NCBI RefSeq assembly: GCF_013122565.1
Contig: NZ_CP053258.1
Length of the DNA: 64,000 bases
Reading direction: 5' to 3' (one strand)
Origin: Escherichia coli
Lineage (GTDB): Bacteria > Pseudomonadota > Gammaproteobacteria > Enterobacterales > Enterobacteriaceae
Of the stretch, positions 8,999 through 23,444 are shown piece after piece (the stretch's first letter is position 1; each line of letters opens with the position of its first letter). Below the pieces are notes generated by a model that had not been told where the DNA came from, ran no database searches, and worked only from the letters and a program-made list of their open reading frames with translations. The position numbers and the translations under genes are program-made.

Positions 8999-9144
8999 AT
9001 TACGGCTCCAGAGTTGTTATCACACTATCACCCACCCACATTATTGGGTTGATTAATAATTAGTTCAGTCAGGGCATAAACGCCAGTAACCGGAAATAAG
9101 ACACTTTGTGATCTCTCTCGCACCCGATTAGTTTTGGTAGAAAT

Positions 9145-9816: not shown

Positions 9817-9832
9817 GCAGATAATTTACTCT

Positions 9833-10148: not shown

Positions 10149-10490
10149 TTTTTGATATGAGCCTTACAGCATATTTTCTGTCAGGCTTGAGTGCGATGCG
10201 TAAGATACAGAAAAGACCCCACACAAACATGATGGAATTATGATTTTTTTCATATGAATGTCAACCCACACATTCACAAAACATCTGCATAAGATCATTT
10301 TTTATACCCCGCATGGCTGCGAAACCACTGCTGGTGCTTTTTTAAGCGAATTGTCGCCGATCACAACAAAATATCGGCGAAAAAAGAGATGGAATGCCAG
10401 TTAGCATACAGATATACAGATGAAATGATTACCTGCATTGCGATTCACTCTCTGGTGGAATAACAACTTGCAGGTGGAACCCTTTCTGAA

Positions 10491-11306
10491 CTAAAGAGTG
10501 TAGCGGATTTTAACGTGCTTATTTACAGGATAATATCTGTCACCTAATTCCTGCACTCTATTAGATATCCATTCATTTAATCGTGCGTCATCTCTGTATG
10601 TTTTTACGTCCAGAACAGAGAGCAATAACATCACCAGTGATTCAGGAAAAACAGGGTAGATATTTTTTAAGTGTAATAATAATCCATGCGCAAGCGCCTG
10701 CTTAATGGGCGCGTCTGTCTCCGGAATAGACGACATTTCGCGAAGCCATTTTTCCACATGCATACACTCTTTCCCTTTAGGGAAAAGTCTCAGCAAAGGC
10801 ATATGGTGTTCAAGAAGAATACATTTGCAATCTGTTCGCACTGAATCGATAAACTGCACTAATTTCTTAAGCCCGGTAAAGCGTCCAGCCTGCACGTTTG
10901 CTTTAATATCAAGAAACGCATCATCCTGGTCATATACCCAAACTGTCCCTTTTTGATTTTCAAGTATGCGAAAAACAAACTTAACCGGGTGATCAGGGTA
11001 ATCCATCCAGTCATAAAATCCAGGGAAATCATTAAACTGCACATTTATGGTGAGTGCGTTATCGTCTGACCACTCACAGTCTCGTACGGCAGCCATGAGA
11101 TGAATGAGTTTGTCGTCATCGACTAAATCATCACGACAATCATAAGGATAATCATAATATTGTTTAATCAAAACCTTGAATATATCGACACAGGAAACCA
11201 GGGAGCTTTTGATATCCTCTGGTAACTGATTGTTTTTAACCGTATTAAGTATGCTTTGTTGCGTGTATGGCATCAAATTATTGTGCGGAGCTTTTAATGA
11301 TATCAT
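10491..11306 (-). CDS. yahL: hypothetical protein YahL, AT-rich gene
   Basis: 271-aa ORF MISLKAPHNNLMPYTQQSILNTVKNNQLPEDIK...; visibly lower GC than neighbours; no recognisable motifs. Confidence 0.7.
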   Translation of the reverse strand: MISLKAPHNNLMPYTQQSILNTVKNNQLPEDIKSSLVSCVDIFKVLIKQYYDYPYDCRDDLVDDDKLIHLMAAVRDCEWSDDNALTINVQFNDFPGFYDWMDYPDHPVKFVFRILENQKGTVWVYDQDDAFLDIKANVQAGRFTGLKKLVQFIDSVRTDCKCILLEHHMPLLRLFPKGKECMHVEKWLREMSSIPETDAPIKQALAHGLLLHLKNIYPVFPESLVMLLLSVLDVKTYRDDARLNEWISNRVQELGDRYYPVNKHVKIRYTL

Positions 11307-11548
11307 CGCGATCTCTCTTAAATAAAAATAAACGTCGCAGATAATAAAGCTCTGATTAAACCAGGCACTATCAGAAATCGCTCATAACTAACGTATGAAG
11401 TATTGTGTACTGGAGGGAGTTAATTTAACAATTTGAATTTACGTTATAGGTTTTACCACTACTTTGATATTATTTCGCTCTCCTTAACTAAAAAGTTAAG
11501 TGGAGAGCGAAGTTAATATGTTAAACCACCGGGTATTTATTAATTTTT

Positions 11549-12598
11549 TCAGTCTGTTAGTGTGCGATTATCGATAACAAAACGATATTTCACATCACCA
11601 CGCAGCATTCGCTCATAGGCTTCATTAATTTGATCGGCCCGAATCATCTCTATATCAGCCACGATGCCATGTTCGGCGCAAAAATCGAGCATCTCCTGTG
11701 TTTCTGGAATGCCGCCAATCATAGAACCGGCTATCGCACGGCGTTTCATGATCAGGTTGAAAACTTCCGGCGATTTATGCGGTGTCGCAGGCGCACCAAC
11801 CAGCGTCATGGTGCCATCGCGCTTCAGCAAGGTGGTAAAATCGTCGAGATTATGTGGCGCAGCTACTGTATTCAAAATGAAATCGAAACTCTTCAGATGA
11901 GCCGCCATCTCATCGGCATTGCGTGAGTTAACAACTTCATCGGCCCCCAGGGCTTTTACCGCTTCGCGTTTTGACTCAGAAGTGGTAAATGCCACCACAT
12001 GTGCCCCCATCGCGTGGGCCAGCTTAATCCCCATATGTCCCAGACCGCCGATGCCGACCACGCCCACTTTTTTACCCGGCCCGGCCTGCCAGTGACGTAG
12101 CGGCGAATACGTGGTGATCCCTGCACACAACAAAGGAGCCACCGCCGCCAGCTGCTCTTGCGGGTGACGAATACGCAGAACATATCGCTCATGTACGACG
12201 ATCTGTTGTGAGTAGCCGCCCAGAGTATGGCCCGGTTCGTCCGGCGTCGGCGAGTTATAGGTGCCGGTCATGTGATCACAGTAGTTTTCCAGCCCGTCTT
12301 CACACTCTTCGCAATGTTTACAACTGTCGACAATGCAGCCGACACCGACCAGATCGCCCGGCGCATGTTTTTCAACCTGATCACCAACGGCTACCACACG
12401 CCCCACAATTTCATGACCCGGTACGCAGGGGTAAACCGTCCCCGCCCACTCGGAACGGACCTGGTGGAGATCGGAATGGCAGACGCCACAGTAAGCGATT
12501 TCGATTTTGACATCATGCGGTCCCGGTTCACGCCGGGTGATATCCATCGGTTCAAGTGGTTGTTTAGCGGAATATGCACCAATAGCCTTGATATTCAT
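11549..12598 (-). CDS. yahK: NADPH-dependent aldehyde reductase (zinc alcohol dehydrogenase family) YahK
   Basis: Start at MNIKAIGAYSAKQPLEP (349 aa) with AGGAG 8 nt upstream; Zn-ligand motif GHEIVG and CGVCHSD. Confidence 0.88.
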   Translation of the reverse strand: MNIKAIGAYSAKQPLEPMDITRREPGPHDVKIEIAYCGVCHSDLHQVRSEWAGTVYPCVPGHEIVGRVVAVGDQVEKHAPGDLVGVGCIVDSCKHCEECEDGLENYCDHMTGTYNSPTPDEPGHTLGGYSQQIVVHERYVLRIRHPQEQLAAVAPLLCAGITTYSPLRHWQAGPGKKVGVVGIGGLGHMGIKLAHAMGAHVVAFTTSESKREAVKALGADEVVNSRNADEMAAHLKSFDFILNTVAAPHNLDDFTTLLKRDGTMTLVGAPATPHKSPEVFNLIMKRRAIAGSMIGGIPETQEMLDFCAEHGIVADIEMIRADQINEAYERMLRGDVKYRFVIDNRTLTD

Positions 12599-12869
12599 TG
12601 CATTCACTCCTGTTCGAAGAGGTATCTGGATGATGTGAGGAACGTCTTTGCAGCAAAACTCGCTCATTCAATATAGCCAATGAATGGTTGCCCGTGATGG
12701 GCTCTGAGACGTCGATACCGGAGAGTTTAATGACCAATAGTGGTGTCGTTTTTCGTGGCAGATCACACTTTCTGGCACCAGCGATATCCCTTTTCCACCT
12801 TAAAACCGGGGCGATATCGTGACTGGCGAATTAGACTGGCGTGAAATTCAATTATTACGCACACGCCGT

Positions 12870-13517
12870 TTACCCCGCAAAAGAAACACGCAATAACTTT
12901 AACTGCCCGTTAATAATGCCAAATTCCAGTATAGTTGTGCCATCACAAACAGCCGGTGGAATTTGTTCATTAGCCTGCGAGCCAATATTCAGCGTAATGC
13001 CATCGTCAGAAATATTCCCCGACATCGCCAGTTCACATATTCCCGTGACGTAGTGGCGCTCCCCTTTCTCTTCGTAATAGAAACGTCCATCATTGAGGGG
13101 ATAATATTTTCTTTTTTGCTCCGCTGGCGTCAGCGAATGACTGAGATAATCATCAATCCATTGGGTACCCGGATGTATCGTGAATTTTGTGACATTATGC
13201 AGACGCCGCATAATGGTTTCTGAATGGCGATCAAATAGTGCTTCTGTGAAGGGTTCAGATTCAGGAAACTCAATCTCAGCGAGAAAGCCGAAATAGGTAT
13301 CGTAGGGGAATTTTAAGAAGGTTTTTAGTTTCGTGGCATTCTTTGCACTCAGCGCTTGCTGAAACTTTTGCAATTGCGTTAAGGCATCTTTTTTCTGCTC
13401 TGGCGTGACCAGGGGCTGTATGCGCACCGCCTCGCATTCGTGTTGTGAATTTCCAGCAGGGCAAGTTGCCAGGACGGCCTGACTCAGAAACAACAGCGAT
13501 AACCAAAGAAATCTCAC
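12870..13517 (-). CDS. hypothetical secreted protein (215 aa, N-terminal signal peptide, four Cys)
   Basis: GTG-start ORF MRFLWLSLLFLSQAVLATCPAGNSQHECEAV...; hydrophobic signal sequence followed by Cys; no family recognised; I do not recall a gene here in K-12. Confidence 0.5.
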   Translation of the reverse strand: MRFLWLSLLFLSQAVLATCPAGNSQHECEAVRIQPLVTPEQKKDALTQLQKFQQALSAKNATKLKTFLKFPYDTYFGFLAEIEFPESEPFTEALFDRHSETIMRRLHNVTKFTIHPGTQWIDDYLSHSLTPAEQKRKYYPLNDGRFYYEEKGERHYVTGICELAMSGNISDDGITLNIGSQANEQIPPAVCDGTTILEFGIINGQLKLLRVSFAG

Positions 13518-13636
13518 GGAGTCTATCCATCCCTGGATAAAAAAGATAATCCGCAGTGTACGTCATGGGCAAAACGCAGAGGATATCGGGTTTTAAAATC
13601 GGAATAGTGCCTGCCCGGATATCCTCGCTGATAACG

Positions 13637-15016
13637 TTACACCACACTCCCCCACACCAGTTGTCCTTTATGGAACGTTGCCGTTCTCGGCGAGATACGC
13701 GCCACCGCCTCGGCGGAACAGGAGGCGTCCACCAGCACAAAGCTGGCGTCATCCTGTGCTTTCGGCCAGACGCGCTCGCCTTTTTCATTCAGCGGCAATA
13801 CATCACCAGTGGCTAAAAACAGCGAGCGGGAGAGGTTCTGTTCGTTAGGACGAATATAGAGCTGCGCGTAGAGATTGGCTTTTTCCAGCATGTCGCCCAG
13901 GCCGTAAGGCGACCAGTGGTCAATAACGCTGTCAGTTCCGGTCATGACTTTTACGCCTTTGTCGTGCAACTGTTTGAGCGGCATATGCAGCGTGCCAATC
14001 GGCACCGTCGAGGCGATAGAAATTTGCTGCGCCGCCATCCGGTGCGCCAGCGCATCGACCTGTTGTTCGTTGAGCGTTGCCAGCGCAAAGGCGTGGCTGA
14101 TGGTCAGCTTACCTTTCAGTTGCGGCGTTTTCTCTACCGTTTCAACCATATAATTGATGGCTGCCACGCCTGCCGGAGTGGTTTCGTGCATGTGAATATC
14201 GACGCCTTTGTCATAGTCAAGGGCAATCTGGAACATGGTGTCGAGGGATTTTTCCATCGCGCCATCGACATTGGTCGGGTCCAGCCCGCCGACGTAATGC
14301 GCGCCCGCCTGCATTGCTTCACGCATTAAGGGTTCCGATTTCGACAGCAGCAAACCGTGCTGCGGGAAGGCGACAATTTCACACTCGAAGCCCGCCTGAC
14401 GTCGCGCCAGCACCGCCTGCAAATTTTGCAGATTTTTCAGGCCGGAAACCGGTTCGATATTGCAGTGGCTGCGGGCAATGGTGGTGCCTTTCGACTGCAA
14501 TAAATCGATCAGTTTTTCCGCCCGTTCCTGCGTGTACGGTTGCAGCTCCGGCAGCATTTTCTGCTCGAGCTTAATCATGTCCTGGATGGTGGTGCCTGCC
14601 GGACGATTGAGCGAGCGCCACGGCCCGCCGTAAAAGGTTTTGTCGAGATGAATATGCATGTCGCGGGTGGTGGGCAGCATCAGCTTACCGCCAGCGTCAT
14701 AGTGCGGCAGCGTGGCGTCCGGATGCTGATTGTTCTCGCGCAGTGCAACAATTTTGCCGTTCTGAATCTCCACGGTCTGGCGCGCCGTGCGGGTCTGCAC
14801 CGCCACGCCATTTTCGTAGTCAAATCCAGTTTCCAGCAGCACGTTGTCGAGATAGTAATGCGGGTCAGTGATTTTCATGGTGTTGTTCGCTTCGCAGTTT
14901 GTGGTGCCAGCTACCGCCGCATGGGCGAGCGGCACAGAGGTACCAAACAGCGCGGCGGCGGTGACCATCTTACCGCTCTGGCTCAGAAATTCACGGCGGC
15001 TATTGTTTTCTTTCAT
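13637..15016 (-). CDS. yahJ: Tat-exported amidohydrolase-superfamily enzyme YahJ
   Basis: 459-aa ORF; twin-arginine motif SRREFL in MKENNSRREFLSQSGKMVTAAALFGTSVPLAHA; metal-binding HxH motif (DMHIHL). Confidence 0.85.
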   Translation of the reverse strand: MKENNSRREFLSQSGKMVTAAALFGTSVPLAHAAVAGTTNCEANNTMKITDPHYYLDNVLLETGFDYENGVAVQTRTARQTVEIQNGKIVALRENNQHPDATLPHYDAGGKLMLPTTRDMHIHLDKTFYGGPWRSLNRPAGTTIQDMIKLEQKMLPELQPYTQERAEKLIDLLQSKGTTIARSHCNIEPVSGLKNLQNLQAVLARRQAGFECEIVAFPQHGLLLSKSEPLMREAMQAGAHYVGGLDPTNVDGAMEKSLDTMFQIALDYDKGVDIHMHETTPAGVAAINYMVETVEKTPQLKGKLTISHAFALATLNEQQVDALAHRMAAQQISIASTVPIGTLHMPLKQLHDKGVKVMTGTDSVIDHWSPYGLGDMLEKANLYAQLYIRPNEQNLSRSLFLATGDVLPLNEKGERVWPKAQDDASFVLVDASCSAEAVARISPRTATFHKGQLVWGSVV

Positions 15017-15025
15017 CTTACGTCC

Positions 15026-15976
15026 TTACGTTTTAATAATATGGGTGCCCGTTTCACCGCGCAGCGCCGCAGGCAGGCATTCCGGCGTGGTGATAATCAC
15101 TTCTTTGCCGCCCTGTTCCAGGAACGTCAGGCTGGCGATGATTTTTGGCAACATGCTGCCAGGCGGAAAATGCCCTTCCTGCATATAGCGGGTCATGGTG
15201 GCAATATCCACCCGATCGAGCGCCTGCTGCTGCGGTTTACCAAAATGAATACACACTTTTTCCACGCCAGTGGTGATCACCAGAATGTCGGCGTGAATTT
15301 CACGGGCCAGCAGCGCGGTAGAGAGATCTTTGTCGATAACCGCGTCCACGCTTTGGTAATCCCCCGCTTCAGTACGCACTACCGGAATTCCACCGCCGCC
15401 CGCGCCAATTACGACAAAACCTTGTTGGATCAGCGCTTTAATGGCAGGTGCTTCGACAATACGTTTCGGTTCCGGCGAGGCGACCACGCGGCGATAGCCC
15501 CGCCCGGCATCTTCAACAAAACACCAGTCAGGGTTTGCCTTTTGTAATTCGTCACGCTGGCTGTCACTAAAGAATGCGCCGATGGGCTTGGTGGGATGGG
15601 CAAATCCCGGATCGTTTTTATCCACTTCCACCTGAGTCACCACGGTGACGGCTTTTTTCTCGCCGTGGCGCGCCAGCCGGTTGTTCAGCGCCTGCTGGAT
15701 CAGATAGCCAATGCCACCTTGCGTATCCGCCACACAGTTTGCCAGCGGCGTTAAGGGCAGCCCTTCGCGCTCGTGGGCAATCTCCGCACGGCGTAAATCC
15801 AGCCCGACCTGCGGCCCGTTGCCGTGGGTCAGCACAATGTCGTAATCGGAAGCCAGCATTTCCAGCACCGTATCGGCCACGGCTTTCACCGCCTCCGCCT
15901 GATGCTCAATCGACTGGCTGGCGTTATCTTTGATAATGCTGTTGCCACCAATGGCAACGACCACAAGCTCTTTCAT
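15026..15976 (-). CDS. yahI: carbamate kinase-like protein YahI
   Basis: Start at MKELVVVAIGGNSIIKD (316 aa); ORF track begins 39 codons upstream. Confidence 0.85.
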   Translation of the reverse strand: MKELVVVAIGGNSIIKDNASQSIEHQAEAVKAVADTVLEMLASDYDIVLTHGNGPQVGLDLRRAEIAHEREGLPLTPLANCVADTQGGIGYLIQQALNNRLARHGEKKAVTVVTQVEVDKNDPGFAHPTKPIGAFFSDSQRDELQKANPDWCFVEDAGRGYRRVVASPEPKRIVEAPAIKALIQQGFVVIGAGGGGIPVVRTEAGDYQSVDAVIDKDLSTALLAREIHADILVITTGVEKVCIHFGKPQQQALDRVDIATMTRYMQEGHFPPGSMLPKIIASLTFLEQGGKEVIITTPECLPAALRGETGTHIIKT

Positions 15977-16071
15977 AATTTTATGTCCGCTACAGAGGGT
16001 GATGAGGTTATGAGAGTGAGGTTGCCCCTCTCCCCAGAAGGAAGAAGGGATCGTAAGGTGCAGTTGGAGGG

Positions 16072-17490
16072 TCAGACGCCGTAACGTTCGCACCAGCCAA
16101 GAATGGCTTTCTCGAAGCAGGCGAATGGCGGATGCACAATGCCCGCGCCAATCATGCCGACGCCCGCATCTTTATGGGCGATGGCGGTGTTGATCACCGG
16201 CAGAATGCCGCTGCTACCCACGCGGGTGATGTCGATTGCCGACGGCACGCCCATAAAACCGAGCAGCGGAATGGTGACGTTGGGGTTTTCACCGAGGGTG
16301 ATTTCGCGCATCTGACGGGAGAAATCGATAGCCTCTTCCACCGTACCGCCCACCAGCGCGACGATAGCGGGCGCGGTCGCCATAGCAAATCCGCCAATAC
16401 CGTAGGTTTCGGTGATGGCGCTATCGCCGATATCCAGCCCCGAATCTTCCGGCTTATAACCGGCAAACATCGGCCCGATCACCTGCTGCGCCGGGCCGGT
16501 AAACCATTGCCCCGGCAGGCCGCTGACTCGCAGGCCAAACTCGACGCCGTTACGTGCCATCGTGGTCACCACGGTGCTGTATTCGATGCCGTGCGCCGCA
16601 TCCATCGCCGCTTTACACATCGCCATCCACGTCGGGCCGGAGAAGTAGTCGCTGCTGGCGACAAACTCAAATACTTCGCGCTGTTGCTCCACGGAATAAC
16701 CTGCCTGAATAATCCCCGGCGTCAGCGCCTGAATCAGCAGCGTCGTCCCGGCGTTATTGCGGTTATGGCATTCATCGCCCATATGCAGCGCCTGCGCCAG
16801 CATTAAGCGCAGATCGATCTCGCCGATAATTTTCATCGCGTCGCGCAGCATTGGTCCCTGCACATCGCGCATCCAGTTCAGGCGGTCAATCACGCTCTGG
16901 TCGTTAGCGCCCATACGCAAAATCTTCGCCATCTGCTCGCTCATATTGGTATAAGCGATGTTGCCGTAGGTTTTGTTTTTCACGATGTGCATAAACATCG
17001 AGGCCGAGGTAACGCCCGCCATCGATCCCACGCAGTCGTGTTCGTGGCACGGCGAGAAGGTGATCTCCCCGGAGGCCGCCAGTTCAGCCGCCTCGTCGAG
17101 ATCTTTCGCCAGCCCTTCGAACACCAGCGCCCCGGTGACCGCGCCTTTCATCGCGCCGCACATTTTTTCCCAGGTAACCGGCGGCCCGGCGTGAAGAATG
17201 GTTTTCGGCGTCATGCCCGGCACCACGTTAATCGCCTGATCAAAACCAATCAGCACCGGATGCGACTGGATAATGCGCTCCAGCGCCTGCTGGTTAGCGG
17301 CGGCGATTTTGTCTGCCAGCGGCGAATCGGTAATGTTATCCAGCGCCTGCACCACCTGCATATTGCCCTGCCCCGGCGGCGTCCAGTCGAGTTGGGTCAC
17401 TTCTACGTGCTGCTTTTTCAGGTCATCGCTAAACATGGCGATGCCGACGTTAATAACGTTCAACGGTTGGCTAAACAGTGACTGGCTCAT
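16072..17490 (-). CDS. yahG: DUF1116 protein YahG (YlbE/AllG paralogue)
   Basis: 472-aa ORF MSQSLFSQPLNVINVGIAMFSDDLKKQHVEVTQLDWTPPGQG...; start overlaps yahF stop. Confidence 0.8.
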   Translation of the reverse strand: MSQSLFSQPLNVINVGIAMFSDDLKKQHVEVTQLDWTPPGQGNMQVVQALDNITDSPLADKIAAANQQALERIIQSHPVLIGFDQAINVVPGMTPKTILHAGPPVTWEKMCGAMKGAVTGALVFEGLAKDLDEAAELAASGEITFSPCHEHDCVGSMAGVTSASMFMHIVKNKTYGNIAYTNMSEQMAKILRMGANDQSVIDRLNWMRDVQGPMLRDAMKIIGEIDLRLMLAQALHMGDECHNRNNAGTTLLIQALTPGIIQAGYSVEQQREVFEFVASSDYFSGPTWMAMCKAAMDAAHGIEYSTVVTTMARNGVEFGLRVSGLPGQWFTGPAQQVIGPMFAGYKPEDSGLDIGDSAITETYGIGGFAMATAPAIVALVGGTVEEAIDFSRQMREITLGENPNVTIPLLGFMGVPSAIDITRVGSSGILPVINTAIAHKDAGVGMIGAGIVHPPFACFEKAILGWCERYGV

Positions 17491-19037
17491 CAGGCTTCCT
17501 CCCCTTTGCAGATAAATTCACGCGCCAGCAATCCGGTATTGGTGCTGCTGCTCGCCAGAATCACTCCGGCATCAAGCAGCATCTGGCTTTGTTGTTCTAA
17601 CGATGGCGTATCAAGATCGGTACCCAGCACATAGGCGAGAATGATCAACTCGCGTCCTTCGGCAGCGGCGATCGCTTTCGCTTCTTTGATCGCCTCGATG
17701 GTGGAGCCGACCGGATCTTCATGCGATCCAAATCCGAGCACAAAATCCATCACGATCACCGCCACTTCTGGATCGCGCGCCTCTTCGATCAAGCGACTGA
17801 TGCGGTTGGTGGGGTCAATCATTGGATGCGGCTTGCTGTTGGTGAAGTCGTCATCGCCAAAGTCGAGGAAGGTGTGTTTGATGCTGCGGTTGATATCTTT
17901 CAGGCGGAATTCCGGATCGGGCTGGATATTGCTGTAGACATCGCCATGTTTTTCCATCACCGCGAACATGATTTCGTCACACAGCGTGCCGCCGCAGAAC
18001 AGGCCACGAATGTATTTCTGCTGCGGTTGCAGACGCGCACGCACATCCGCAATCAACGGCTGGTTAAGCGTATGCAGGTCGAGATGTTCTTGTTTCACGC
18101 CGGAGAGCATCACCGCTTTTAGCGCCGCTTCTTTGCTGCCACGAGCAAACTGTAGACCCTGCTCATCCACCGGCGTTTCACCGCGACCGAGGAAACAGAC
18201 CACCACCGGCTTGCGGCAGGCACGTGCGCGTTCCAGCACTTTGCGGGCCACCGCAGGCGCGGGAGGTTTTGAAATCAGCGCGATAATTTCAGTTTGCGGA
18301 TCGTTTTCCAGCATCCCGATGGCGTCAAGCATCATCAGGCCGCCGATTTTCTCGCTCAGGTCGCGCCCGCCGGTGCCAATCAGTTGTGAAACGCCGCCAC
18401 CAAATTCATGAATGCGGACGCTCAGCTCCTGGCTGCCGGTGCCGGATGCGCCAACAATACCGATGTTGCCGCGACGCACGGCGTTACCAAAACAGAGCGC
18501 CGCGCCGTTGATAATCGCCGTGCCACAGTCTGGCCCCATCATCAGCAGCCCTTTTTCGTGGGCCAGTTGCTTGAGCGCCAGTTCATCTTCAACTGAGACG
18601 TTATCGGAAAACAGCATCACGTTGAGATCGTTTTGCAGCGCCTGACGCGCTTCGCGAGCAGCAAACAGACCGTTGACCGAAATCACCGCCAGGTTACTTT
18701 CCGGGATATGCTTTTTGGCGCTGGCAATAGTGGCGTAACGCGCCTCGTGCGAGCCGCTTTGCGCTTTGGTGTTGAACAGTTCTTCAATCTCCACCAGCAA
18801 CTGCTCGTTGTCCGCACCCGATTTACCATTGATGACAATCATCAGGTCGCCGTTTTTCGCCTGTTCCAGCTCCGGCGTCAGCAGCCCTAAATTCTTCAGC
18901 ACGCCTTTGTTCATTTCGGTCGCCATCGCCACAAATGCCTGCTCGACGCCGTCGAGTTTATTTGCACGCGTGGAGATAGACATCAGCGAGACAGAATCAA
19001 AATAGGTATTCGGTTTAATGACTATTTTAACTGACAT
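17490..19037 (-). CDS. yahF: FdrA-family CoA-binding/succinyl-CoA-synthetase-like protein YahF
   Basis: 515-aa ORF MSVKIVIKPNTYFDSVSLMSISTRANKLDGVEQAF... Confidence 0.8.
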   Translation of the reverse strand: MSVKIVIKPNTYFDSVSLMSISTRANKLDGVEQAFVAMATEMNKGVLKNLGLLTPELEQAKNGDLMIVINGKSGADNEQLLVEIEELFNTKAQSGSHEARYATIASAKKHIPESNLAVISVNGLFAAREARQALQNDLNVMLFSDNVSVEDELALKQLAHEKGLLMMGPDCGTAIINGAALCFGNAVRRGNIGIVGASGTGSQELSVRIHEFGGGVSQLIGTGGRDLSEKIGGLMMLDAIGMLENDPQTEIIALISKPPAPAVARKVLERARACRKPVVVCFLGRGETPVDEQGLQFARGSKEAALKAVMLSGVKQEHLDLHTLNQPLIADVRARLQPQQKYIRGLFCGGTLCDEIMFAVMEKHGDVYSNIQPDPEFRLKDINRSIKHTFLDFGDDDFTNSKPHPMIDPTNRISRLIEEARDPEVAVIVMDFVLGFGSHEDPVGSTIEAIKEAKAIAAAEGRELIILAYVLGTDLDTPSLEQQSQMLLDAGVILASSSTNTGLLAREFICKGEEA

Positions 19038-19890
19038 AATTCCCTCCGTAGGTTTGGCTCAGCGCACAACCATCGGCCATGCCATACAGCATGTCGCAGC
19101 CGGAACTGGAGCCAATATGTTTAATTTTTTCTATTGCCTGAGTTGCGTTCCCAGGAATGTCATAAATAATGTTGTGAATAAAACGATGAATATTTTCCCG
19201 GCAGCGTTGTTGTAATGCGGCTTCGAGCGTTATGGCACTTAATAATGTGGTATTATTTCTGCCGCGTTGCAGACCGAGATAAAATTCCTCTTTGTATTTT
19301 TCCGCCGGATGTCCGGAAATAAATAAAATAAGTACCAGTCCGGTCAGATAATCATCGGCTGATGGCGTAAGCCCAATCCCTAATCCCATCATATTAGCTA
19401 CCGCTGAGGCGATATTTTGTTTTTCGTTTACGGCCTGAATAACTGCTTGTCGTTTAATATGTAATTCTTTATTTAACGCCTGATAAAACGGATTATCGCC
19501 GCGATAATTAAACAGGGTTTCATTTTCCCCCAGGTGCTGATGAATAATGTCGTGCCACTGTTGCCAGGCGATAAGGTGAAAATTCACAGCGGTCATTTGC
19601 AAGGTTGGGGACAGCCAACGCTGGCAATGACTCATCTCTATATGAAGATGTTGACCAACCGTAATGCCTTGATCGTCAAACTGAACCTTATCACCATGCC
19701 GGAACAGACCATCAAAGTGAGTGAGTGCCAACCGACAACTGTTTGGCGCATTGTCGTACTCTTCACAAAGCAGCGTTAGCAACTGCTGGCGAGCCGGGAG
19801 TGCGATATTTACCGCTCTGGCAAAGACCTGTTCAACCTGTCCTTGCCCCCGCTGCGCCAGAAAATCAGCATCCGCAGTTAGCGCCCACAC
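19027..19890 (-). CDS. yahE: DUF2877 protein YahE (YlbF/AllH paralogue)
   Basis: 287-aa ORF; 11-nt overlap with yahF start. Confidence 0.75.
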   Translation of the reverse strand: MWALTADADFLAQRGQGQVEQVFARAVNIALPARQQLLTLLCEEYDNAPNSCRLALTHFDGLFRHGDKVQFDDQGITVGQHLHIEMSHCQRWLSPTLQMTAVNFHLIAWQQWHDIIHQHLGENETLFNYRGDNPFYQALNKELHIKRQAVIQAVNEKQNIASAVANMMGLGIGLTPSADDYLTGLVLILFISGHPAEKYKEEFYLGLQRGRNNTTLLSAITLEAALQQRCRENIHRFIHNIIYDIPGNATQAIEKIKHIGSSSGCDMLYGMADGCALSQTYGGNYVS

Positions 19891-19929
19891 ACACCGTCTT
19901 TCTGGTGTGTTGATAGCAAGCCTCCCGGT

Positions 19930-20535
19930 TTATGCGCCTGCGGCAATCAGTAACTGCGCAATCTCTTCAAAGCCCCGTTCTCGCGCCAGTTCCAGCGGTG
20001 TTTTGCCATATTTATCGGTCAGATGCGGGCTGGCACCGTGTTCCAGCAATAACTGGACAATCGCCTGCTGTTTAATCCCGCCATCATTAAGCACAATCGC
20101 TTCCAGTAGCGGCGTCCAGCCAACATGGTTGGTCTGGTTAACGTTAATATCGGTGTGCGCCAAAAGCTCTTTTACAATACTTAAATGGCCTTTTTCACAG
20201 GCAGGCGTCAGGCCGACACCGCCAAAACGGGTTACGCAATTAAGATCGGGTTTAGCCGGTAAAATAATTCGTAGTAGCGTTAAATCATCGTACAGACAGC
20301 TAATTAAAAAAGGATTTAAACAGGTATGATCTTGTTTATTAATATCCGCTCCGGCATCAATTAATGCCTGAACGCAAGCATATTGCTGATATAAACTTGC
20401 CAGCGTAATTGCCGTTTTCCCGTGGCGATCGCAGGTATTAATATCGACACCCAGCGCAAGGCAGGTTTTTACTTTATCGATATCACCCTGTTGCGCAGCC
20501 AATAAATAGTCGGCAGGTAGATTTTTTATAGTCAT
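19930..20535 (-). CDS. yahD: ankyrin-repeat protein YahD
   Basis: 201 aa with ankyrin-like repeats (DRHGKTAITLAS..., GLTPACEKGHLSIVKELL..., GWTPLLEAIV..., YGKTPLELARERG...). Confidence 0.8.
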   Translation of the reverse strand: MTIKNLPADYLLAAQQGDIDKVKTCLALGVDINTCDRHGKTAITLASLYQQYACVQALIDAGADINKQDHTCLNPFLISCLYDDLTLLRIILPAKPDLNCVTRFGGVGLTPACEKGHLSIVKELLAHTDINVNQTNHVGWTPLLEAIVLNDGGIKQQAIVQLLLEHGASPHLTDKYGKTPLELARERGFEEIAQLLIAAGA

Positions 20536-20792
20536 TCACATTCCCCTGGTTTTTGTGGCTGTTTTCGATGAATTGAGAATAGCAACGATAATCTGATAAA
20601 AGAACCCGCTTAAATTTAATTCGCCGTATTTCGCCTTTTTGTTGAATGATGTTCAACAATCTTTTCGCAGTGTGCGGTAGTGCAATATTTGTTTCTTTGA
20701 CCCGATACCCTTTCACTCAATCAGGTTTTATTTCTCTATAGTCTGCACATGTAAGAGTAGCTTTCGTCCATGTCTAACCAGAGGGGAACAAG

Positions 20793-21290
20793 ATGAACGG
20801 ACTCACGGCAACGGGTGTCACCGTCGGTATTTGTGCAGGGCTTTGGCAGTTAGTGTCTTCACATGTCGGGCTCTCTCAGGGATGGGAATTATTAGGAACC
20901 ATTGGCTTCGTCGCCTTTTGCAGTTTTTATGCCGCAGGCGGCGGTAAATCGGGGTTTATCAGAAGTCTGGCGGTTAATTATTCCGGGATGGTGTGGGCAT
21001 TTTTCGCCGCGCTGGCTGCCGGTTGGCTGGCCTCGGTGAGTGGGATTTCTGGGTTCTGGGCCAGCGTGATGACTACCGTGCCTTTCTCAGCGGTAGTGGT
21101 CTGGCAAGGGCGTTTCTGGTTACTGTCTTTTATTCCCGGAGGCTTTCTCGGCATGACGCTATTTTTTGCCAGCGGGATGAACTGGACGGTGACATTACTG
21201 GGTTTTCTGGCGGGTAACTGCGTGGGGATAATTTCAGAATATGGTGGGCAAAAATTAAGCGAAGCGACGACTAAACGCGACGGGTATTAA
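20793..21290 (+). CDS. yahC: inner-membrane protein YahC
   Basis: 165-aa hydrophobic ORF MNGLTATGVTVGICAGLWQLVSSHVGLSQGWELLGTIGFVAF... Confidence 0.8.
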   Translation: MNGLTATGVTVGICAGLWQLVSSHVGLSQGWELLGTIGFVAFCSFYAAGGGKSGFIRSLAVNYSGMVWAFFAALAAGWLASVSGISGFWASVMTTVPFSAVVVWQGRFWLLSFIPGGFLGMTLFFASGMNWTVTLLGFLAGNCVGIISEYGGQKLSEATTKRDGY

Positions 21291-21381
21291 AAGTTATTCA
21301 AAAATGATTACCCATCTTTAATTGATACCTCTACAGTTATGCCTGGAGAAAATTAAAGTAGAAAATGGCGGGAATGGTTTA

Positions 21382-22314
21382 ATGAACTCAATTTTTACCG
21401 AAGAGAATCTGTTGGCATTTACTACCGCTGCGCGTTTTGGCAGCTTCAGTAAAGCCGCAGAAGAGTTGGGTTTAACCACTTCCGCCATTAGCTACACCAT
21501 TAAGCGTATGGAGACGGGGCTGGATGTGGTGCTGTTCACTCGCAGTACCCGCAGCATTGAGTTAACGGAGTCCGGGCGTTATTTTTTCCGCAAAGCTACC
21601 GACCTGCTGAATGATTTTTATGCCATCAAACGTAGCATAGATACTATTTCGCAGGGCATAGAAGCGCGTGTGCGCATTTGTATTAATCAGCTGCTTTATA
21701 CGCCCAAACACACCGCACGCTTATTGCAGGTACTGAAAAAGCAGTTTCCTACCTGCCAGATTACCGTCACCACCGAAGTGTATAATGGCGTCTGGGATGC
21801 GATTATTAATAATCAGGCGAATATCGCTATCGGCGCACCCGACACGCTGCTGGACGGTGGCGGTATTGATTACACTGAAATTGGCGCGATTCGCTGGGCT
21901 TTTGCTATCGCCCCGGATCACCCGTTAGCCTTTGTGCCGGAACCCATCGCCGAAAGCCAACTGCGTCTCTATCCTAATATCATGGTGGAGGACACCGCGC
22001 ATACGATTAATAAAAAAGTGGGCTGGTTGCTGCATGGGCAGGAGTCAATTCTGGTGCCAGATTTCAACACCAAATGTCAGTGCCAGATTTTAGGTGAAGG
22101 AATTGGTTTTTTGCCGGATTACATGGTCCGTGAGGCGATGGCGCAATCCCTGCTGGTTACCCGACAAATCCATAATCCACGCCAGGATTCACGCATGTTG
22201 CTGGCGACCCAGCATTCAGCAACGGGTCAGGTGACGCAGTGGATTAAAAAACAATTTGCGCCAAATGGCATATTAACGGGGATCTATCAGGATTTACTGC
22301 ATCGGGAGAATTAA
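21382..22314 (+). CDS. yahB: LysR-type transcriptional regulator YahB
   Basis: Start at MNSIFTEENLLAFTTAARFGSFSKAAEELGLTTSAISYTIKRME (310 aa); ORF track starts 20 codons upstream. Confidence 0.85.
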   Translation: MNSIFTEENLLAFTTAARFGSFSKAAEELGLTTSAISYTIKRMETGLDVVLFTRSTRSIELTESGRYFFRKATDLLNDFYAIKRSIDTISQGIEARVRICINQLLYTPKHTARLLQVLKKQFPTCQITVTTEVYNGVWDAIINNQANIAIGAPDTLLDGGGIDYTEIGAIRWAFAIAPDHPLAFVPEPIAESQLRLYPNIMVEDTAHTINKKVGWLLHGQESILVPDFNTKCQCQILGEGIGFLPDYMVREAMAQSLLVTRQIHNPRQDSRMLLATQHSATGQVTQWIKKQFAPNGILTGIYQDLLHREN

Positions 22315-22355
22315 TCGCTGCCAACCTCCCGATGCGCTGTGAATAGCGGTTTACA

Positions 22356-23444
22356 TCAACCACCTGCTTTCATTACCCATTCAGAGATAAATTTATTACC
22401 CGGAACTGGCGGGGAGTACAAATAGCCCTGCAAAAAGTGAACGCCTTTACCGATCATTAAATCCGCCTGCTCCTGGGTTTCTACCCCTTCCGCTACGATA
22501 CTCAGACCAGGCTTACGCGCCAGTTCGACAATATTGTCCACAATATGACCGGATATTTCGTCGACACTCGCCATTTGCACAAATGACTTATCGATCTTAA
22601 TAAAATCGACCGGAAACGCCTGCAGATAACGATAGGTCGCATAACCCGTACCAAAGTCATCCAGCGCAAAGGTAATGTTGTGCTGATGAAGGCTGTCAAA
22701 TATCGCTCTGGCTTCTGGCGTTACCGGAATAGGGTTACGTTCCGTTAGCTCGAGAACCAGTTTGATCTTATCGTTTCCTAATTTCTTGACCAGGTTCAGG
22801 CATTCTTTTTCAAATCCCGCGGCCAAAAAACAACCCGCCGAGACGTTGATACCAATATGGAAATTATCCGGCAGCAAATGTTTTACCGGCATCAGAATAT
22901 CCGCAGTCTGTTTCATCAGTTGGCGGGTCATTATGACAATAAGACCGGATGACTCCGCCAGAGGAATAAACTGATCCGGCGGGATGATTCCCGTTTGTGG
23001 ATGTTCCCAGCGGACAAGCACCTCACAGCCCGTCAGTACCCCAGTCTGCGCGCAGAAAACCGGTTGGATCCACGGTTTGAATTCATGGTTTTCCAACGCC
23101 AGACTGATGGCTTCAGGCGTGACGATATGGTGATAGTGATTATCATTAATATATCTGTGACTATTACTACCCGTGGCGGATATGATCTCCGGATTGTACT
23201 GAAAGAAAATATCGCGCCAGAAAGTAATATCGCTCTGAATCCCCAGTTTCTCAAAGAGCTGTTTCTTTTGATGTGAAATGGTCTTTGCACTGCGATTTCT
23301 GTACTGTGATATTTCTGTTACAGACATTCCCTGCATCAGCAGCTTGAGTAGCAGTCGTTCTTTCTCGGATACGCTACCAGGCAATGACAAATGAACCGTT
23401 GTACCGAACTCTTGCAGAAAAACACGAAAATCACATGAATTCAT
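22356..23444 (-). CDS. pdeL: c-di-GMP phosphodiesterase PdeL (YahA): LuxR-type HTH plus EAL domain
   Basis: Start at MNSCDFRVFLQEF (362 aa); N-terminal HTH (LTEISQYRNRSAKTISHQKKQLFEKLGI), C-terminal EAL domain. Confidence 0.88.
   Translation of the reverse strand: MNSCDFRVFLQEFGTTVHLSLPGSVSEKERLLLKLLMQGMSVTEISQYRNRSAKTISHQKKQLFEKLGIQSDITFWRDIFFQYNPEIISATGSNSHRYINDNHYHHIVTPEAISLALENHEFKPWIQPVFCAQTGVLTGCEVLVRWEHPQTGIIPPDQFIPLAESSGLIVIMTRQLMKQTADILMPVKHLLPDNFHIGINVSAGCFLAAGFEKECLNLVKKLGNDKIKLVLELTERNPIPVTPEARAIFDSLHQHNITFALDDFGTGYATYRYLQAFPVDFIKIDKSFVQMASVDEISGHIVDNIVELARKPGLSIVAEGVETQEQADLMIGKGVHFLQGYLYSPPVPGNKFISEWVMKAGG

What the first reader, a model, noticed from the sequence alone, without database searches (positions are those of the whole stretch)
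13637..20535. yahD-yahE-yahF-yahG-yahI-yahJ: uncharacterised operon that looks like a second carbamoyltransferase plus carbamate-kinase pathway with a Tat-exported amidohydrolase
Six co-directional, tightly packed genes (yahE/yahF overlap by 11 nt; yahF/yahG share stop and start) with divergent yahC and LysR regulator yahB. From memory, YahF, YahG and YahE are paralogues of FdrA, YlbE and YlbF (reported as oxamate carbamoyltransferase AllFGH), and YahI of carbamate kinase YbcF. By analogy the cluster may cleave an unknown carbamoyl or ureido compound to carbamoyl phosphate and harvest ATP. YahJ carries a clear twin-arginine signal (SRREFL) and an HxH metal motif, implying a periplasmic hydrolytic first step. 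The ankyrin-repeat YahD is an unusual partner. Substrate and physiological role are unknown to my knowledge.
Basis: partly seen in the sequence, partly recalled or inferred. Interest (0 to 1): 0.6.

Follow-up and report, generated by a model that had tools for sequence, protein, structure and literature searches.

The report
Uncharacterised ureide-to-ATP operon yahDEFGIJ
This is the real, intact yahDEFGIJ operon of an Escherichia genome, a sister copy of the recently solved allantoin-end-pathway enzymes (AllFGH plus carbamate kinase). It most likely splits an unidentified urea-like compound to make ATP and ammonia, but nobody has yet shown on what compound.

Summary
Six co-directional minus-strand genes (yahD-E-F-G-I-J, 13637-20535) sit opposite divergent yahC and yahB. 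YahF, G, E, I and B are paralogues of AllF, AllG, AllH, AllK and AllS (39, 45, 25, 38 and 39% identity). YahJ is an AtzC/CodA-type metal amidohydrolase. Its twin-arginine signal is conserved in all 75 orthologues examined.

New here:
- Yah-type YahG forms a tight clade, at least 72% identical from Escherichia to Brevibacillus and Enterococcus, against 49% or less to any other relative. The ankyrin protein YahD is a frequent partner in it.
- Most genera carry a 517-aa, Pfam-less permease with the UraA/SLC26 fold between yahG and yahI. The Escherichia/Kluyvera/Raoultella clade lacks it and has yahC instead.
- Gram-positive clusters swap in an allantoin-permease-like transporter and cytoplasmic deaminases.
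- One sister cluster sits beside a cyanuric-acid-hydrolase/barbiturase-family gene, another beside an isochorismatase-family gene.
- yahE is missing in 25 of 78 loci.

Best reading (about 0.55): a feeder deaminase supplies an N-acylurea-type ureide. YahEFG(D) phosphorolyses it to carbamoyl phosphate, and YahI converts that to ATP. The substrate is probably not oxalurate and remains unknown. This is a known y-ome operon and a new variant of a known enzyme kind.

The parts
13637..15016 (-). yahJ: Tat-exported mononuclear-metal amidohydrolase of the AtzC/CodA (deaminase-type) branch, 459 aa
   Evidence: NCBIfam PRK06846 scores 712.8 bits against a cutoff of 447. Pfam gives Amidohydro_3 and Amidohydro_1. 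Nearest solved structures are AtzC-like 6nbo (3.7e-44) and AtzC 2qt3, then cytosine deaminase. Metal and catalytic residues align to CodA: H121, H123, Q219, H275, E278, H308 and D362 against H61, H63, Q156, H214, E217, H246 and D313.
14918..15016 (-). Twin-arginine signal peptide of YahJ (residues 1-33: SRREFL, hydrophobic region, AHA|A)
   Evidence: The motif is read directly from the sequence. RR-x-F-[LI] plus a hydrophobic region plus an AxA-type site is conserved in all 75 orthologues from Enterobacterales and Aeromonas. YahJ is listed as a predicted Tat substrate in PMC7549933.
15026..15976 (-). yahI: carbamate kinase paralogue, 316 aa
   Evidence: NCBIfam NF009007 (carbamate kinase) scores 649.9 bits against a cutoff of 266. 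The arcC equivalog TIGR00746 scores 346, just under its cutoff of 358. Identity to AllK/YbcF is 38%.
15977..16071 (-). yahG-yahI spacer. This is where most other genera carry a 517-aa permease gene (T517) and where K-12 carries the REP array annotated as yahH.
   Evidence: Locus survey. No significant T517 relic was found in the spacer. The K-12 yahH segment is a repeated REP/BIME array.
16072..17490 (-). yahG: AllG/DUF1116-family subunit, 472 aa. Its N-terminal ~57 residues correspond to the C-terminal tail of AllF.
   Evidence: Pfam AllG 6e-89. 45% identity to AllG. About 72% identical to PDB 3clq, an uncharacterised protein whose sequence is encoded in an Enterococcus-like locus. YahG residues 8-52 match FdrA profile positions 509-553 (alignment).
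17490..19037 (-). yahF: AllF/FdrA-family subunit related to succinyl-CoA synthetase alpha, 515 aa
   Evidence: NCBIfam NF004760 scores 487.7 bits against a cutoff of 433, with a partial SCS-alpha match. Pfam gives CoA_binding and Ligase_CoA. 39% identity to AllF. Family-invariant motifs are MGPDCGT, ASGTG, IGxGGRDL, SKPP and PHPMI.
19027..19890 (-). yahE: AllH/DUF2877-family subunit, 287 aa, the fastest-evolving and sometimes missing member
19930..20535 (-). yahD: cytoplasmic ankyrin-repeat protein, 201 aa, first gene of the operon
   Evidence: Partial hits to ankyrin-containing models and RefSeq annotation. Orthologues head the cluster in Brevibacillus (53% identity), Janthinobacterium (68%) and Aeromonas (69%), and a longer Ank+TPR form is present in Trichococcus.
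20574..20685 (-). Conserved control region upstream of yahD. Blocks: TTGCAC-N4-CGCACA (20685-20671); inverted repeat TTGTTGAA-N5-TTCAACAA (20659-20639), a candidate YahB (LysR, T-N11-A-like) site; TTTAAGCGG (20614-20606); GTTGCTATTCTCA (20586-20574).
   Evidence: Alignment of 80 upstream regions covering both locus types. The blocks are at least 90% conserved and partly retained in Janthinobacterium. Binding by YahB is an inference and was not tested.
20793..21290 (+). yahC: DUF1097 inner-membrane protein, 165 aa. Candidate replacement for the lost T517 permease (low confidence).
   Evidence: Of 71 assessable loci, 16 have yahC only, 55 have T517 only, none has both and none has neither. All yahC loci form one clade, so this is a single evolutionary event. 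A DUF1097 gene neighbours preTA-hydA in Anaerostipes hadrus (PMC11036815).
21382..22314 (+). yahB: LysR-type regulator, closest paralogue of AllS
   Evidence: The best NCBIfam matches are AllS (267 bits, below the 372 cutoff) and PunR (238 bits). 39% identity to AllS, E 1e-72. It lies next to the cluster in 75 of 80 surveyed loci.

Best explanation
yahDEFGIJ, with yahB and probably yahC, is a catabolic module. It parallels the oxamate branch of allantoin breakdown but is distinct from it.

Proposed mechanism:
1. YahJ is exported folded by the Tat system. In the periplasm it hydrolytically removes an amino or alkylamino group from an amino-substituted N-heterocycle or amidine, using AtzC/CodA-type chemistry.
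2. The resulting ureide, or the same ureide taken directly from the environment, is imported. In most genera the importer would be the 517-aa UraA/SLC26-fold permease; in Escherichia possibly YahC.
3. In the cytoplasm YahF-YahG, with YahE and/or the ankyrin protein YahD as accessory subunits, transfers the carbamoyl group of an N-acylurea-type ureide to phosphate.
4. YahI converts the carbamoyl phosphate plus ADP to ATP, NH3 and CO2.
5. YahB activates the operon.

Status of each part:
- Shown here: gene structure, homologies, conservation, synteny and signal-peptide conservation.
- Taken from the literature: the AllFGH and AllK activities.
- Inferred: every catalytic step of Yah, the direction of flux, the transporter roles and the regulator role.
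- Unknown: the substrate. The favoured classes are biuret/allophanate/triuret-like, malonurate-like or oxalurate-analogue acylureas derived from oxidised or aminated purine, pyrimidine or triazine rings.
For: - Paralogy covers the whole set: F, G, E, I and B against AllF, AllG, AllH, AllK and AllS. Pfam and NCBIfam memberships agree.
- AllFGH catalyses oxalurate + Pi <-> carbamoyl phosphate + oxamate, and AllK is the coupled kinase (PMC11326118; PMC9843812).
- A carbamate kinase is in the cluster in all 76 Enterobacterales/Aeromonas loci whose sequence reaches that position, and in Janthinobacterium, Brevibacillus, Peribacillus, sister cluster L089 and the IncF plasmid module.
- Yah-type YahG is a separate, strongly constrained orthogroup. 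Identity is 72-79% in Firmicutes and Betaproteobacteria, while the next relatives reach 49% or less. It coexists with allFGHK in E. coli.
- AllF-AllG fusion proteins of about 1000 aa exist, and the 50-residue tail sits on AllF in the All system but on YahG here. Both argue for an F-G complex.
- Feeder deaminases recur and are non-orthologous: Tat-YahJ in 75 of 75 Enterobacterales loci, two cytoplasmic YahJ homologues in Trichococcus, and a 150-aa CDA-fold deaminase in Brevibacillus.
- Transporters at the post-yahG position are nucleobase/ureide-type or organic-anion-type. Brevibacillus has an allantoin-permease-like NCS1 transporter (435 bits to PRK11375). T517 has the UraA/SLC26/SLC23/AzgA fold.
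- Sister AllF/AllG clusters sit beside a cyanuric-acid-hydrolase/barbiturase-family gene and beside an isochorismatase-family gene plus UPRTase. In nitrifiers they are reported beside triuret/biuret genes (PMC12625717).
- Purifying selection: pN/pS 0.03-0.14.
Against: - No Yah protein has been assayed, and no inducer or phenotype is known from the searchable literature.
- YahE is absent in 25 of 78 loci, whereas AllH is needed for full OXTCase function in vivo. The subunit logic may therefore differ from AllFGH.
- Escherichia lacks the dedicated permease. The YahC substitution rests on one evolutionary event.
- No ring-opening enzyme is encoded in the operon. If YahJ's product is a stable oxo-heterocycle, a step is missing.
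- YahI scores just below the arcC equivalog cutoff (346 against 358).
- The modules lacking YahJ show it is not essential to the core.
Confidence: 0.55

Rival explanations
1. Yah is a redundant second oxamic transcarbamylase/carbamate kinase system. It acts on oxalurate itself, from allantoin, parabanate or similar sources, under different regulation or conditions from allFGHK.
For: The paralogy is complete and includes an AllS-like regulator. The Brevibacillus cluster carries an allantoin-permease-like NCS1 transporter. PucR-family (purine-catabolism-type) regulators are found in Firmicutes clusters.
Against: In a K-12 background, which carries an intact yah operon in MG1655, the allF, allG and allFGH deletions give zero oxamate from allantoin (PMC11326118 Tables 1-3). 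YahG is only 45% identical to AllG, yet at least 72% identical to orthologues in other phyla, which is the pattern of a distinct specificity. The conserved deaminase partners have no role in oxalurate use.
Confidence: 0.15
2. YahEFG carries out different chemistry from carbamoyl transfer. Examples are an NDP-forming acyl-CoA-synthetase-like or other acyl-phosphate reaction, or a biosynthetic carbamoylation using carbamoyl phosphate made by YahI.
For: RefSeq names YahF 'acyl-CoA synthetase FdrA'. YahF shares the CoA_binding and Ligase_CoA domains with succinyl-CoA synthetase alpha. YahE is dispensable in many genomes.
Against: No ATP-grasp subunit is encoded in the cluster. The succinyl-CoA synthetase alpha profile match is partial (residues 101-280, model positions 54-232 of 291). 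The only characterised family member is a transcarbamylase (PMC11326118). The tight linkage to carbamate kinase, deaminases and ureide/nucleobase-type transporters fits catabolism.
Confidence: 0.15
3. In Escherichia the operon is a cryptic, functionally stranded remnant. The dedicated permease was lost, so the pathway no longer sees its substrate.
For: T517 is absent from all 16 fully assessable loci of the Escherichia/Kluyvera/Raoultella clade, and the site holds only a short spacer or REP arrays. No phenotype or inducer has been reported. Many truncated YahC variants are present in the protein database. A nonsense mutation in a DUF1116 gene arose in E. coli J53 in M9 culture (PMC6306219; which paralogue was hit is not stated).
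Against: pN/pS is 0.03-0.14 for all six genes. The locus is kept in about 92% of complete E. coli genomes. The promoter blocks and the Tat signal are conserved. A yahJ deletion gave a small competitive defect in an ExPEC mouse model (CI 0.70, p 0.02, PMC7549933).
Confidence: 0.1

Closest known systems
AllFGH oxamic transcarbamylase plus AllK carbamate kinase, with activator AllS (E. coli allantoin oxamate branch)
   Same: All three enzyme subunits, the kinase and the LysR activator are homologous (25-45% identity). The operon logic of an enzyme followed by carbamate kinase is the same. The F-G partnership is supported by fusions and by the migrating tail segment.
   Different: Gene order is E-F-G rather than F-G-H. 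The tail segment is on G rather than F. An ankyrin subunit gene and a Tat-exported amidohydrolase are added. The locus is not embedded in the allantoin regulon. YahG forms a separate orthogroup. Chromosomal yah does not rescue allFGH deletions on allantoin. YahE is dispensable in many genomes.
Arginine deiminase and agmatine deiminase pathways (deiminase, then catabolic transcarbamylase, then carbamate kinase)
   Same: The inferred three-step logic is the same: hydrolytic removal of an imino or amino group creates a ureido compound, phosphorolysis gives carbamoyl phosphate, and substrate-level phosphorylation follows.
   Different: The transcarbamylase here is not of the ATCase/OTCase fold. 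It belongs to the FdrA/DUF1116/DUF2877 family. The deaminase is an amidohydrolase-superfamily enzyme and is periplasmic. This is a resemblance in how it works, not family membership.
AtzC (N-isopropylammelide isopropylaminohydrolase) and CodA (cytosine deaminase), amidohydrolase superfamily
   Same: YahJ shares the fold, the mononuclear metal ligands and the catalytic Glu/His set. It has the AtzC-type HxHxDK lysine.
   Different: Identity to CodA is only 23%. Scores are far below the cytosine deaminase cutoffs (102 against 438). Residue S363 replaces CodA D314. YahJ carries a Tat signal peptide. Its substrate is unknown.
Other AllF/AllG-type clusters: one linked to an AtzD/barbiturase-family gene (L087), one linked to isochorismatase and UPRTase (L089, and the APEC O1 tkt1 island), and nitrifier allFGHK next to triuret/biuret genes
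   Same: They share the same enzyme core, often with carbamate kinase and T517-like permeases (PMC12625717).
   Different: Identity to YahG is 49% or less. The feeder enzymes differ: ring-opening amidase or isochorismatase-type hydrolase instead of YahJ. There is no ankyrin gene.

Membership tests
AllFGH-type (FdrA/DUF1116/DUF2877) carbamoyltransferase family | Three subunits homologous to AllF, AllG and AllH | tested here: met
   BLASTP E-values are 1e-101, 2e-119 and 6e-11. Pfam gives AllG 6e-89, AllH 2e-28, and CoA_binding plus Ligase_CoA. NCBIfam FdrA scores 487.7 against a cutoff of 433.
AllFGH-type (FdrA/DUF1116/DUF2877) carbamoyltransferase family | Genetic coupling to a catabolic carbamate kinase | tested here: met
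   yahI follows yahG. NF009007 scores 649.9 against a cutoff of 266. The kinase is present in every surveyed proteobacterial locus that reaches that position.
AllFGH-type (FdrA/DUF1116/DUF2877) carbamoyltransferase family | Formation of carbamoyl phosphate from a ureide plus phosphate (enzyme activity) | not testable with these tools
   Only AllFGH has been assayed (PMC11326118).
Oxamic transcarbamylase proper (orthologue of AllFGH, substrate oxalurate) | Orthology to AllFGH and a place in the allantoin regulon | tested here: not met
   Identity to AllF, AllG and AllH is 39, 45 and 25%, against at least 72% to Yah-type YahG in other phyla. The locus lies between pdeL and yahK, not beside allECD. 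It coexists with allFGHK in K-12.
Oxamic transcarbamylase proper (orthologue of AllFGH, substrate oxalurate) | Supports oxamate production from allantoin in vivo | tested here: inconclusive
   Literature only. Deletions of allF, allG and allFGH make no oxamate even though K-12 MG1655 carries an intact yah operon. yah may simply not be expressed under those conditions.
Tat (twin-arginine) exported proteins | S/T-R-R-x-F-L motif, moderately hydrophobic region and AxA cleavage site at the N-terminus | tested here: met
   The sequence reads SRREFL...AHA|A. The motif is conserved in 75 of 75 orthologues, while the Gram-positive homologues lack the extension.
Tat (twin-arginine) exported proteins | Tat-dependent export shown experimentally | not testable with these tools
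   PMC7549933 lists YahJ among predicted Tat substrates. I recall reporter-fusion work from before 2010, but it is not in the searchable library, so it counts only as a lead.
Amidohydrolase superfamily, CodA/AtzC deaminase branch | HxH, His, His and Asp metal ligands plus a catalytic Glu | tested here: met
   H121, H123, H275, H308, D362 and E278 align with CodA H61, H63, H214, H246, D313 and E217. PRK06846 scores 712.8 against a cutoff of 447.
Cytosine deaminase (CodA equivalog) | Score above the curated family cutoff and the CodA specificity residue D314 | tested here: not met
   Scores of 102, 83 and 70 bits fall below cutoffs of 438, 483 and 403. S363 replaces D314.
Carbamate kinase (arcC equivalog TIGR00746) | Score above the curated cutoff | tested here: inconclusive
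   346.0 against 358.25 is just below the cutoff, but the subfamily model NF009007 is passed easily.
AllS (equivalog NF007501) | Score above the curated cutoff | tested here: not met
   267.1 against 372. YahB is the nearest paralogue of AllS, not an orthologue.
ATCase/OTCase-fold transcarbamylases | An OTCace_N / OTCace domain protein in the cluster | tested here: not met
   No such hit for any of the nine proteins searched.

The most novel reading that the evidence does not exclude
Yah defines a widespread, phylum-crossing and sometimes plasmid-borne pathway. It harvests ATP and nitrogen by phosphorolysis of an N-acylurea other than oxalurate, for example a biuret-, allophanate-, triuret- or malonurate-type compound. 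That compound would arise from aminated or oxidised purine, pyrimidine or triazine rings. A periplasmic deaminase acts as feeder. A previously unannotated UraA/SLC26-fold permease family is the importer. An ankyrin-repeat protein is an integral subunit of a bacterial metabolic enzyme.
Probability: 0.4. Interest if true: 0.7.

Novelty: new variant of a known kind. Interest (0 to 1): 0.55.

Why it matters
About a third of E. coli genes still lack a function, and yahB-yahJ is a block of at least eight of them. The enzyme family was deorphanised only in 2024, for a single substrate.

This analysis shows that the Yah branch is a separate and unusually conserved orthogroup. It is found in soil Firmicutes, enterics, Aeromonas and on conjugative plasmids of animal E. 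coli. That implies a common natural substrate that yields ATP without respiration.

Identifying the substrate would add a new route of anaerobic nitrogen and energy harvest from nucleobase-like or urea-like compounds in gut, urine and soil. It would assign functions to YahB-J, to an unannotated permease family and to DUF1097. It would also give a rare example of a bacterial ankyrin protein working inside core metabolism.

The comparative data narrow the experiment to a short compound list and point to better test organisms than K-12, such as Citrobacter or Enterobacter, which still have the permease.

Tried and rejected
- **Relic of the lost permease.** I searched the 95-nt yahG-yahI spacer and its equivalents in 18 other loci with tblastn and blastn. 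Only chance-level matches appeared (best E 0.03 in a tiny search space).
- **Riboswitch clue to the ligand.** Rfam found nothing but tRNAs in seven Firmicute, proteobacterial and metagenomic loci, and nothing in window 11000-24000 at E 0.1 or below.
- **Promoter and terminator scan.** The consensus scan over the operon gave counts no higher than shuffled sequence and no terminator after yahJ.
- **T517 by sequence.** No Pfam, NCBIfam or PDB hit. Only the fold search classified it.
- **Independent contexts for DUF1097/YahC.** The homologue search returned only close enterobacterial orthologues, so no independent test of the transporter idea was possible.
- **Literature on yah genes, YahB targets and DUF1116/DUF2877.** No functional characterisation was found. 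The AllFGH and AllK papers do not mention the yah paralogues.
- **Enterococcus-type cluster in the selenium/purine gene cluster.** I had remembered such a link. The locus fetched shows no such neighbourhood.
- **Similarity between the AllS-bound region and the yah control block.** I saw it by eye only and do not rely on it.

Full report
**1. Is it there?**

Yes. The six ORFs lie on the minus strand at the stated coordinates:
- yahD 19930-20535
- yahE 19027-19890
- yahF 17490-19037
- yahG 16072-17490
- yahI 15026-15976
- yahJ 13637-15016

yahC (20793-21290) and yahB (21382-22314) are divergent. The 8-kb stretch is 96.6% identical to E. coli chromosomes, where RefSeq annotates the same genes. 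It is present at 80% coverage or more in 4985 of 5426 complete genomes.

The 11-nt yahE/yahF overlap and the ATGA junction of yahF/yahG are as described. The only loose junction is the 95-nt yahG-yahI spacer. Against E. coli the six genes show pN/pS of 0.03-0.14, so they are maintained by selection.

**2. Homology claims**

Pairwise comparison with the K-12 all cluster (locus fetched) gives:

| Yah protein | All protein | Identity | E-value |
|---|---|---|---|
| YahF | AllF | 39% | 1e-101 |
| YahG | AllG | 45% | 2e-119 |
| YahE | AllH | 25% | 6e-11 |
| YahI | AllK | 38% | 3e-57 |
| YahB | AllS | 39% | 1e-72 |

Pfam confirms AllH (2e-28), AllG (6e-89) and CoA_binding plus Ligase_CoA. NCBIfam places YahF in the FdrA subfamily and YahI in a carbamate kinase subfamily, both above cutoff. 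YahB scores best against AllS and PunR but below both cutoffs.

AllFGH is experimentally the oxamic transcarbamylase (oxalurate + Pi <-> carbamoyl phosphate + oxamate), and AllK is the coupled kinase (PMC11326118, PMC9843812). Neither paper mentions the yah paralogues.

**3. YahJ**

YahJ passes the PRK06846 amidohydrolase model (712.8 bits against a cutoff of 447) and falls far below the cytosine-deaminase cutoffs. Its nearest solved relatives are an AtzC-annotated protein (6nbo, 3.7e-44), AtzC itself, and then CodA.

Aligned with CodA, all mononuclear-metal and catalytic residues are present:

| YahJ | H121 | H123 | Q219 | H275 | E278 | H308 | D362 |
|---|---|---|---|---|---|---|---|
| CodA | H61 | H63 | Q156 | H214 | E217 | H246 | D313 |

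Two residues differ from CodA: S363 replaces the specificity residue D314, and K126 matches the AtzC HxHxDK lysine.

The twin-arginine motif, hydrophobic region and AxA site are conserved in all 75 orthologues from Enterobacterales and Aeromonas. The Gram-positive homologues lack the extension. Conservation of this kind is strong evidence that the signal is used. PMC7549933 lists YahJ as a predicted Tat substrate and reports a small competitive defect for a yahJ deletion (CI 0.70).

**4. What the relatives show**

*A separate, tightly conserved orthogroup.* Yah-type YahG is extraordinarily conserved:
- 86-99% identity in 80 Enterobacterales/Aeromonas loci
- 76-79% in Brevibacillus, Paenibacillus and Janthinobacterium
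- about 72% to PDB 3clq, an uncharacterised protein whose sequence is encoded in an Enterococcus-like locus

In a search of 1.84 billion cluster representatives the whole group collapses into one 50%-identity cluster. The next relatives are 49% identical or less. E. coli AllG is at 45%. Yah is therefore a separate orthogroup that coexists with All in the same genome. That is the signature of a different specificity rather than a spare copy.

*Gene order across taxa.*

| Taxon | Cluster |
|---|---|
| Proteobacteria | yahB; yahD-(E)-F-G-[517-aa membrane protein]-yahI-(yahJ) |
| Brevibacillus | PucR; Ank-AllH-AllF-AllG-NCS1 permease-carbamate kinase-150-aa CDA-fold deaminase. The permease's best NCBIfam match is allantoin permease (435 bits, below cutoff). 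|
| Trichococcus | PucR; two cytoplasmic YahJ homologues (36% identity); a longer Ank+TPR protein; H-F-G; a 394-aa membrane protein; RidA-type proteins |
| Enterococcus-type and Peribacillus | H-F-G plus the 393-397-aa membrane protein. No ankyrin gene. Peribacillus also has a kinase. |

Four conclusions follow:
- Carbamate kinase is the most constant companion.
- Deaminase-type feeder enzymes recur but are non-orthologous: a Tat-exported amidohydrolase, cytoplasmic amidohydrolases, or a CDA-fold enzyme.
- The slot after yahG is a hot spot for transporter exchange.
- The ankyrin protein is a frequent partner across two phyla, though not a universal one.

At least one of YahD or YahE/AllH is present in every Yah-type locus seen. 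Twenty-five of 78 enterobacterial loci (the Enterobacter/Leclercia/Lelliottia group and A. cavernicola) have lost yahE and keep yahD, with D-F gaps of 109-513 nt. The Enterococcus-type and Peribacillus loci have H without D.

**5. The missing gene in Escherichia**

Of 71 fully assessable loci, 55 carry the 517-aa gene (T517) and no yahC. Sixteen carry yahC and no T517. None has both or neither.

The yahC group is Escherichia, Pseudocitrobacter, Kluyvera, C. amalonaticus, Raoultella and K. spallanzanii. It is a single clade by YahG identity, so this is one evolutionary event and not sixteen. It makes YahC (DUF1097) a candidate substitute transporter, but only weakly. The single independent hint is a DUF1097 gene next to preTA-hydA in Anaerostipes hadrus (PMC11036815).

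T517 has no Pfam, NCBIfam or PDB sequence match. Its AlphaFold model (pLDDT 77.5) has the 7+7 inverted-repeat fold of BicA/SLC26Dg, SVCT1, UraA and AZG transporters (Foldseek E 5e-7 to 1e-4). That fold carries organic anions or nucleobases. Two T517 paralogues also sit in a sister AllF/AllG cluster.

No relic of T517 remains in the spacer. In K-12 the site is filled by a REP/BIME array that was once annotated as yahH.

**6. Clues to chemistry**

*The F-G complex.* AllF and AllG occur fused in proteins of about 1000 aa. The last roughly 50 residues of AllF are homologous to the first roughly 55 of YahG. The gene split therefore lies at different points of one ancestral chain, which argues for an F-G complex.

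*Relation to succinyl-CoA synthetase.* YahF shares its N-terminal half with succinyl-CoA synthetase alpha (E 5e-19, model positions 54-232 of 291). Family-invariant motifs include MGPDCGT, IGxGGRDL and PHPMI. Enzymes of that superfamily phosphorolyse an activated acyl group to an acyl phosphate. Phosphorolysis of an N-acylurea to carbamoyl phosphate is the same type of reaction. This link is my inference from established knowledge of succinyl-CoA synthetase.

*Sister clusters.*
- One has an AtzD/TrzD-family (cyanuric acid hydrolase/barbiturase) gene directly upstream of AllF-AllG.
- Another combines PucR, two T517-like permeases, an isochorismatase-family hydrolase, a short AllH, F, G, carbamate kinase and a UPRTase.
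- APEC O1 carries a similar isochorismatase-linked cluster on its tkt1 island (PMC3349570).
- Nitrifier MAGs are reported to place allFGHK next to triuret/biuret genes (PMC12625717).

From established knowledge of these families, AtzD/barbiturase enzymes make carboxybiuret or ureidomalonate, and isochorismatase-family enzymes include the known biuret and triuret hydrolases. Both sets of compounds are N-acylureas. The family as a whole therefore looks like a set of acylurea phosphorylases fed by different ring-processing enzymes.

**7. Most likely mechanism and its limits**

The model is:
1. A periplasmic AtzC/CodA-type deamination by YahJ, which is optional because complete modules lack it.
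2. Uptake.
3. Cytoplasmic carbamoyl transfer to phosphate by YahF-G with YahE and/or YahD.
4. ATP formation by YahI.
5. Activation by YahB.

Upstream of yahD a block of motifs is at least 90% conserved across 80 loci of both locus types. It includes a perfect inverted repeat, TTGTTGAA-N5-TTCAACAA, at 20659-20639. This is a plausible LysR site but has not been tested.

The substrate is probably not oxalurate. Strains deleted for allF, allG or allFGH in a K-12 background make no oxamate. Non-expression of yah under those conditions would explain this equally well.

Four weak points remain:
- No ring-opening enzyme is encoded.
- yahE can be lost.
- The dedicated permease is absent in Escherichia.
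- There are no experimental data at all on any Yah enzyme.

I put the main model at about 0.55, a redundant oxalurate system at 0.15, different chemistry at 0.15, and a stranded remnant in Escherichia at 0.10.

**8. Novelty and verdict**

The operon itself is a known y-ome block. Current RefSeq product names already reflect the AllH and YlbE family relationship, so the paralogy will not surprise a specialist. No paper in the searchable library characterises it.

What is new is the comparative picture:
- a distinct, highly conserved and mobile orthogroup
- recurrent ankyrin and deaminase partners
- an unannotated permease family
- a gene-for-gene parallel with the all system that includes the regulator

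Together these turn 'function unknown' into a short list of experiments. I rate it a new variant of a known kind, with interest 0.55.

Noticed in passing
window 15977-16071; K-12 locus L095 8745-9165: The K-12 gene 'yahH' (b0322) between yahG and yahI is a tandem REP/BIME array (gccggatgcggcg... units). It matches at least 10, median 25, places per E. coli genome. This window lacks the array and has a 95-nt spacer. Spacer length varies from 88 to 318 nt among related loci. It is the site where other genera carry the T517 permease gene.
   Followed up: yes
window 12870-13517 (-): A 215-aa ORF lies between yahJ and yahK. Its N-terminus is hydrophobic and signal-like (MRFLWLSLLFLSQAVLATC). It has no Pfam or NCBIfam match. 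It occurs in only 59 of 5426 complete E. coli genomes (for example strain 042) at 99.2% identity, and is absent from K-12. It is much closer to E. coli than the neighbouring yah genes are (96.6%).
   Followed up: partly
L097 (plasmid pAMSC2, NZ_CP031107.1) 8979-16095: Conjugative IncF plasmids of animal and avian E. coli carry a complete minimal Yah-type module next to IS100: ankyrin, DUF2877, FdrA, DUF1116, T517 (annotated 'xanthine permease') and carbamate kinase. It is about 86% identical in DNA to the window and has no yahJ. Seventy plasmid records match at 80-90% identity.
   Followed up: partly
L010/L011 (Pseudocitrobacter) versus window 13637-19100: Pseudocitrobacter yahF-G-I-J are 94-96% identical in DNA (98-99% in protein) to this window, while its YahD and YahE are only 72% and 55-58% identical in protein. 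The alignment breaks inside yahE. This suggests a recent inter-genus recombination.
   Followed up: partly
L038, L053, L079 and 22 other loci, between yahD and yahF: yahE is absent from 25 of 78 surveyed loci (the Enterobacter/Leclercia/Lelliottia/Silvania group and Aeromonas cavernicola). The gap between yahD and yahF is 109-147 nt in most of them, with outliers of 286 and 513 nt. AllH, by contrast, is needed for full AllFGH function in vivo.
   Followed up: partly
L006 11540-13093; L005 11656-13209; L089 1711-3216 and 3876-5399: The T517 membrane-protein family (about 500-520 aa) has no Pfam, NCBIfam or PDB sequence match, yet models as a UraA/SLC26/SLC23/AzgA-fold transporter. It recurs in at least two different AllF/AllG cluster types. 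A second unannotated membrane family (393-397 aa) takes the same slot in the Enterococcus-type locus, Trichococcus and Peribacillus.
   Followed up: partly
window 20574-20685: The control region upstream of yahD is strongly conserved and includes a perfect 8-bp-arm inverted repeat (20659-20639). By eye, the AllS-bound fragment of the allD-allF intergenic region contains similar TTGTTG ... TTAAAAGTGAGCGG elements.
   Followed up: partly
whole window (tested at 13000-21000 and 36000-44000): Both stretches are only about 96.6-96.7% identical to the best of 5426 complete E. coli genomes. The 36-44 kb stretch is fully covered in only two genomes. The source therefore appears to be a divergent Escherichia lineage.
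   Followed up: partly
APEC O1 tkt1 genomic island (literature, PMC3349570): ExPEC/APEC strains carry yet another AllFGH-like cluster: isochorismatase hydrolase, yahE-like, yahF-like, yahG-like, carbamate kinase and a permease. With the plasmid module above, the E. coli pangenome therefore holds at least four such modules.
   Followed up: no
yahC homologues (protein search): Many E. coli database entries for YahC are truncated forms of about 141 aa that match only the first half of the protein. This may indicate frequent frameshift variants of yahC.
   Followed up: no
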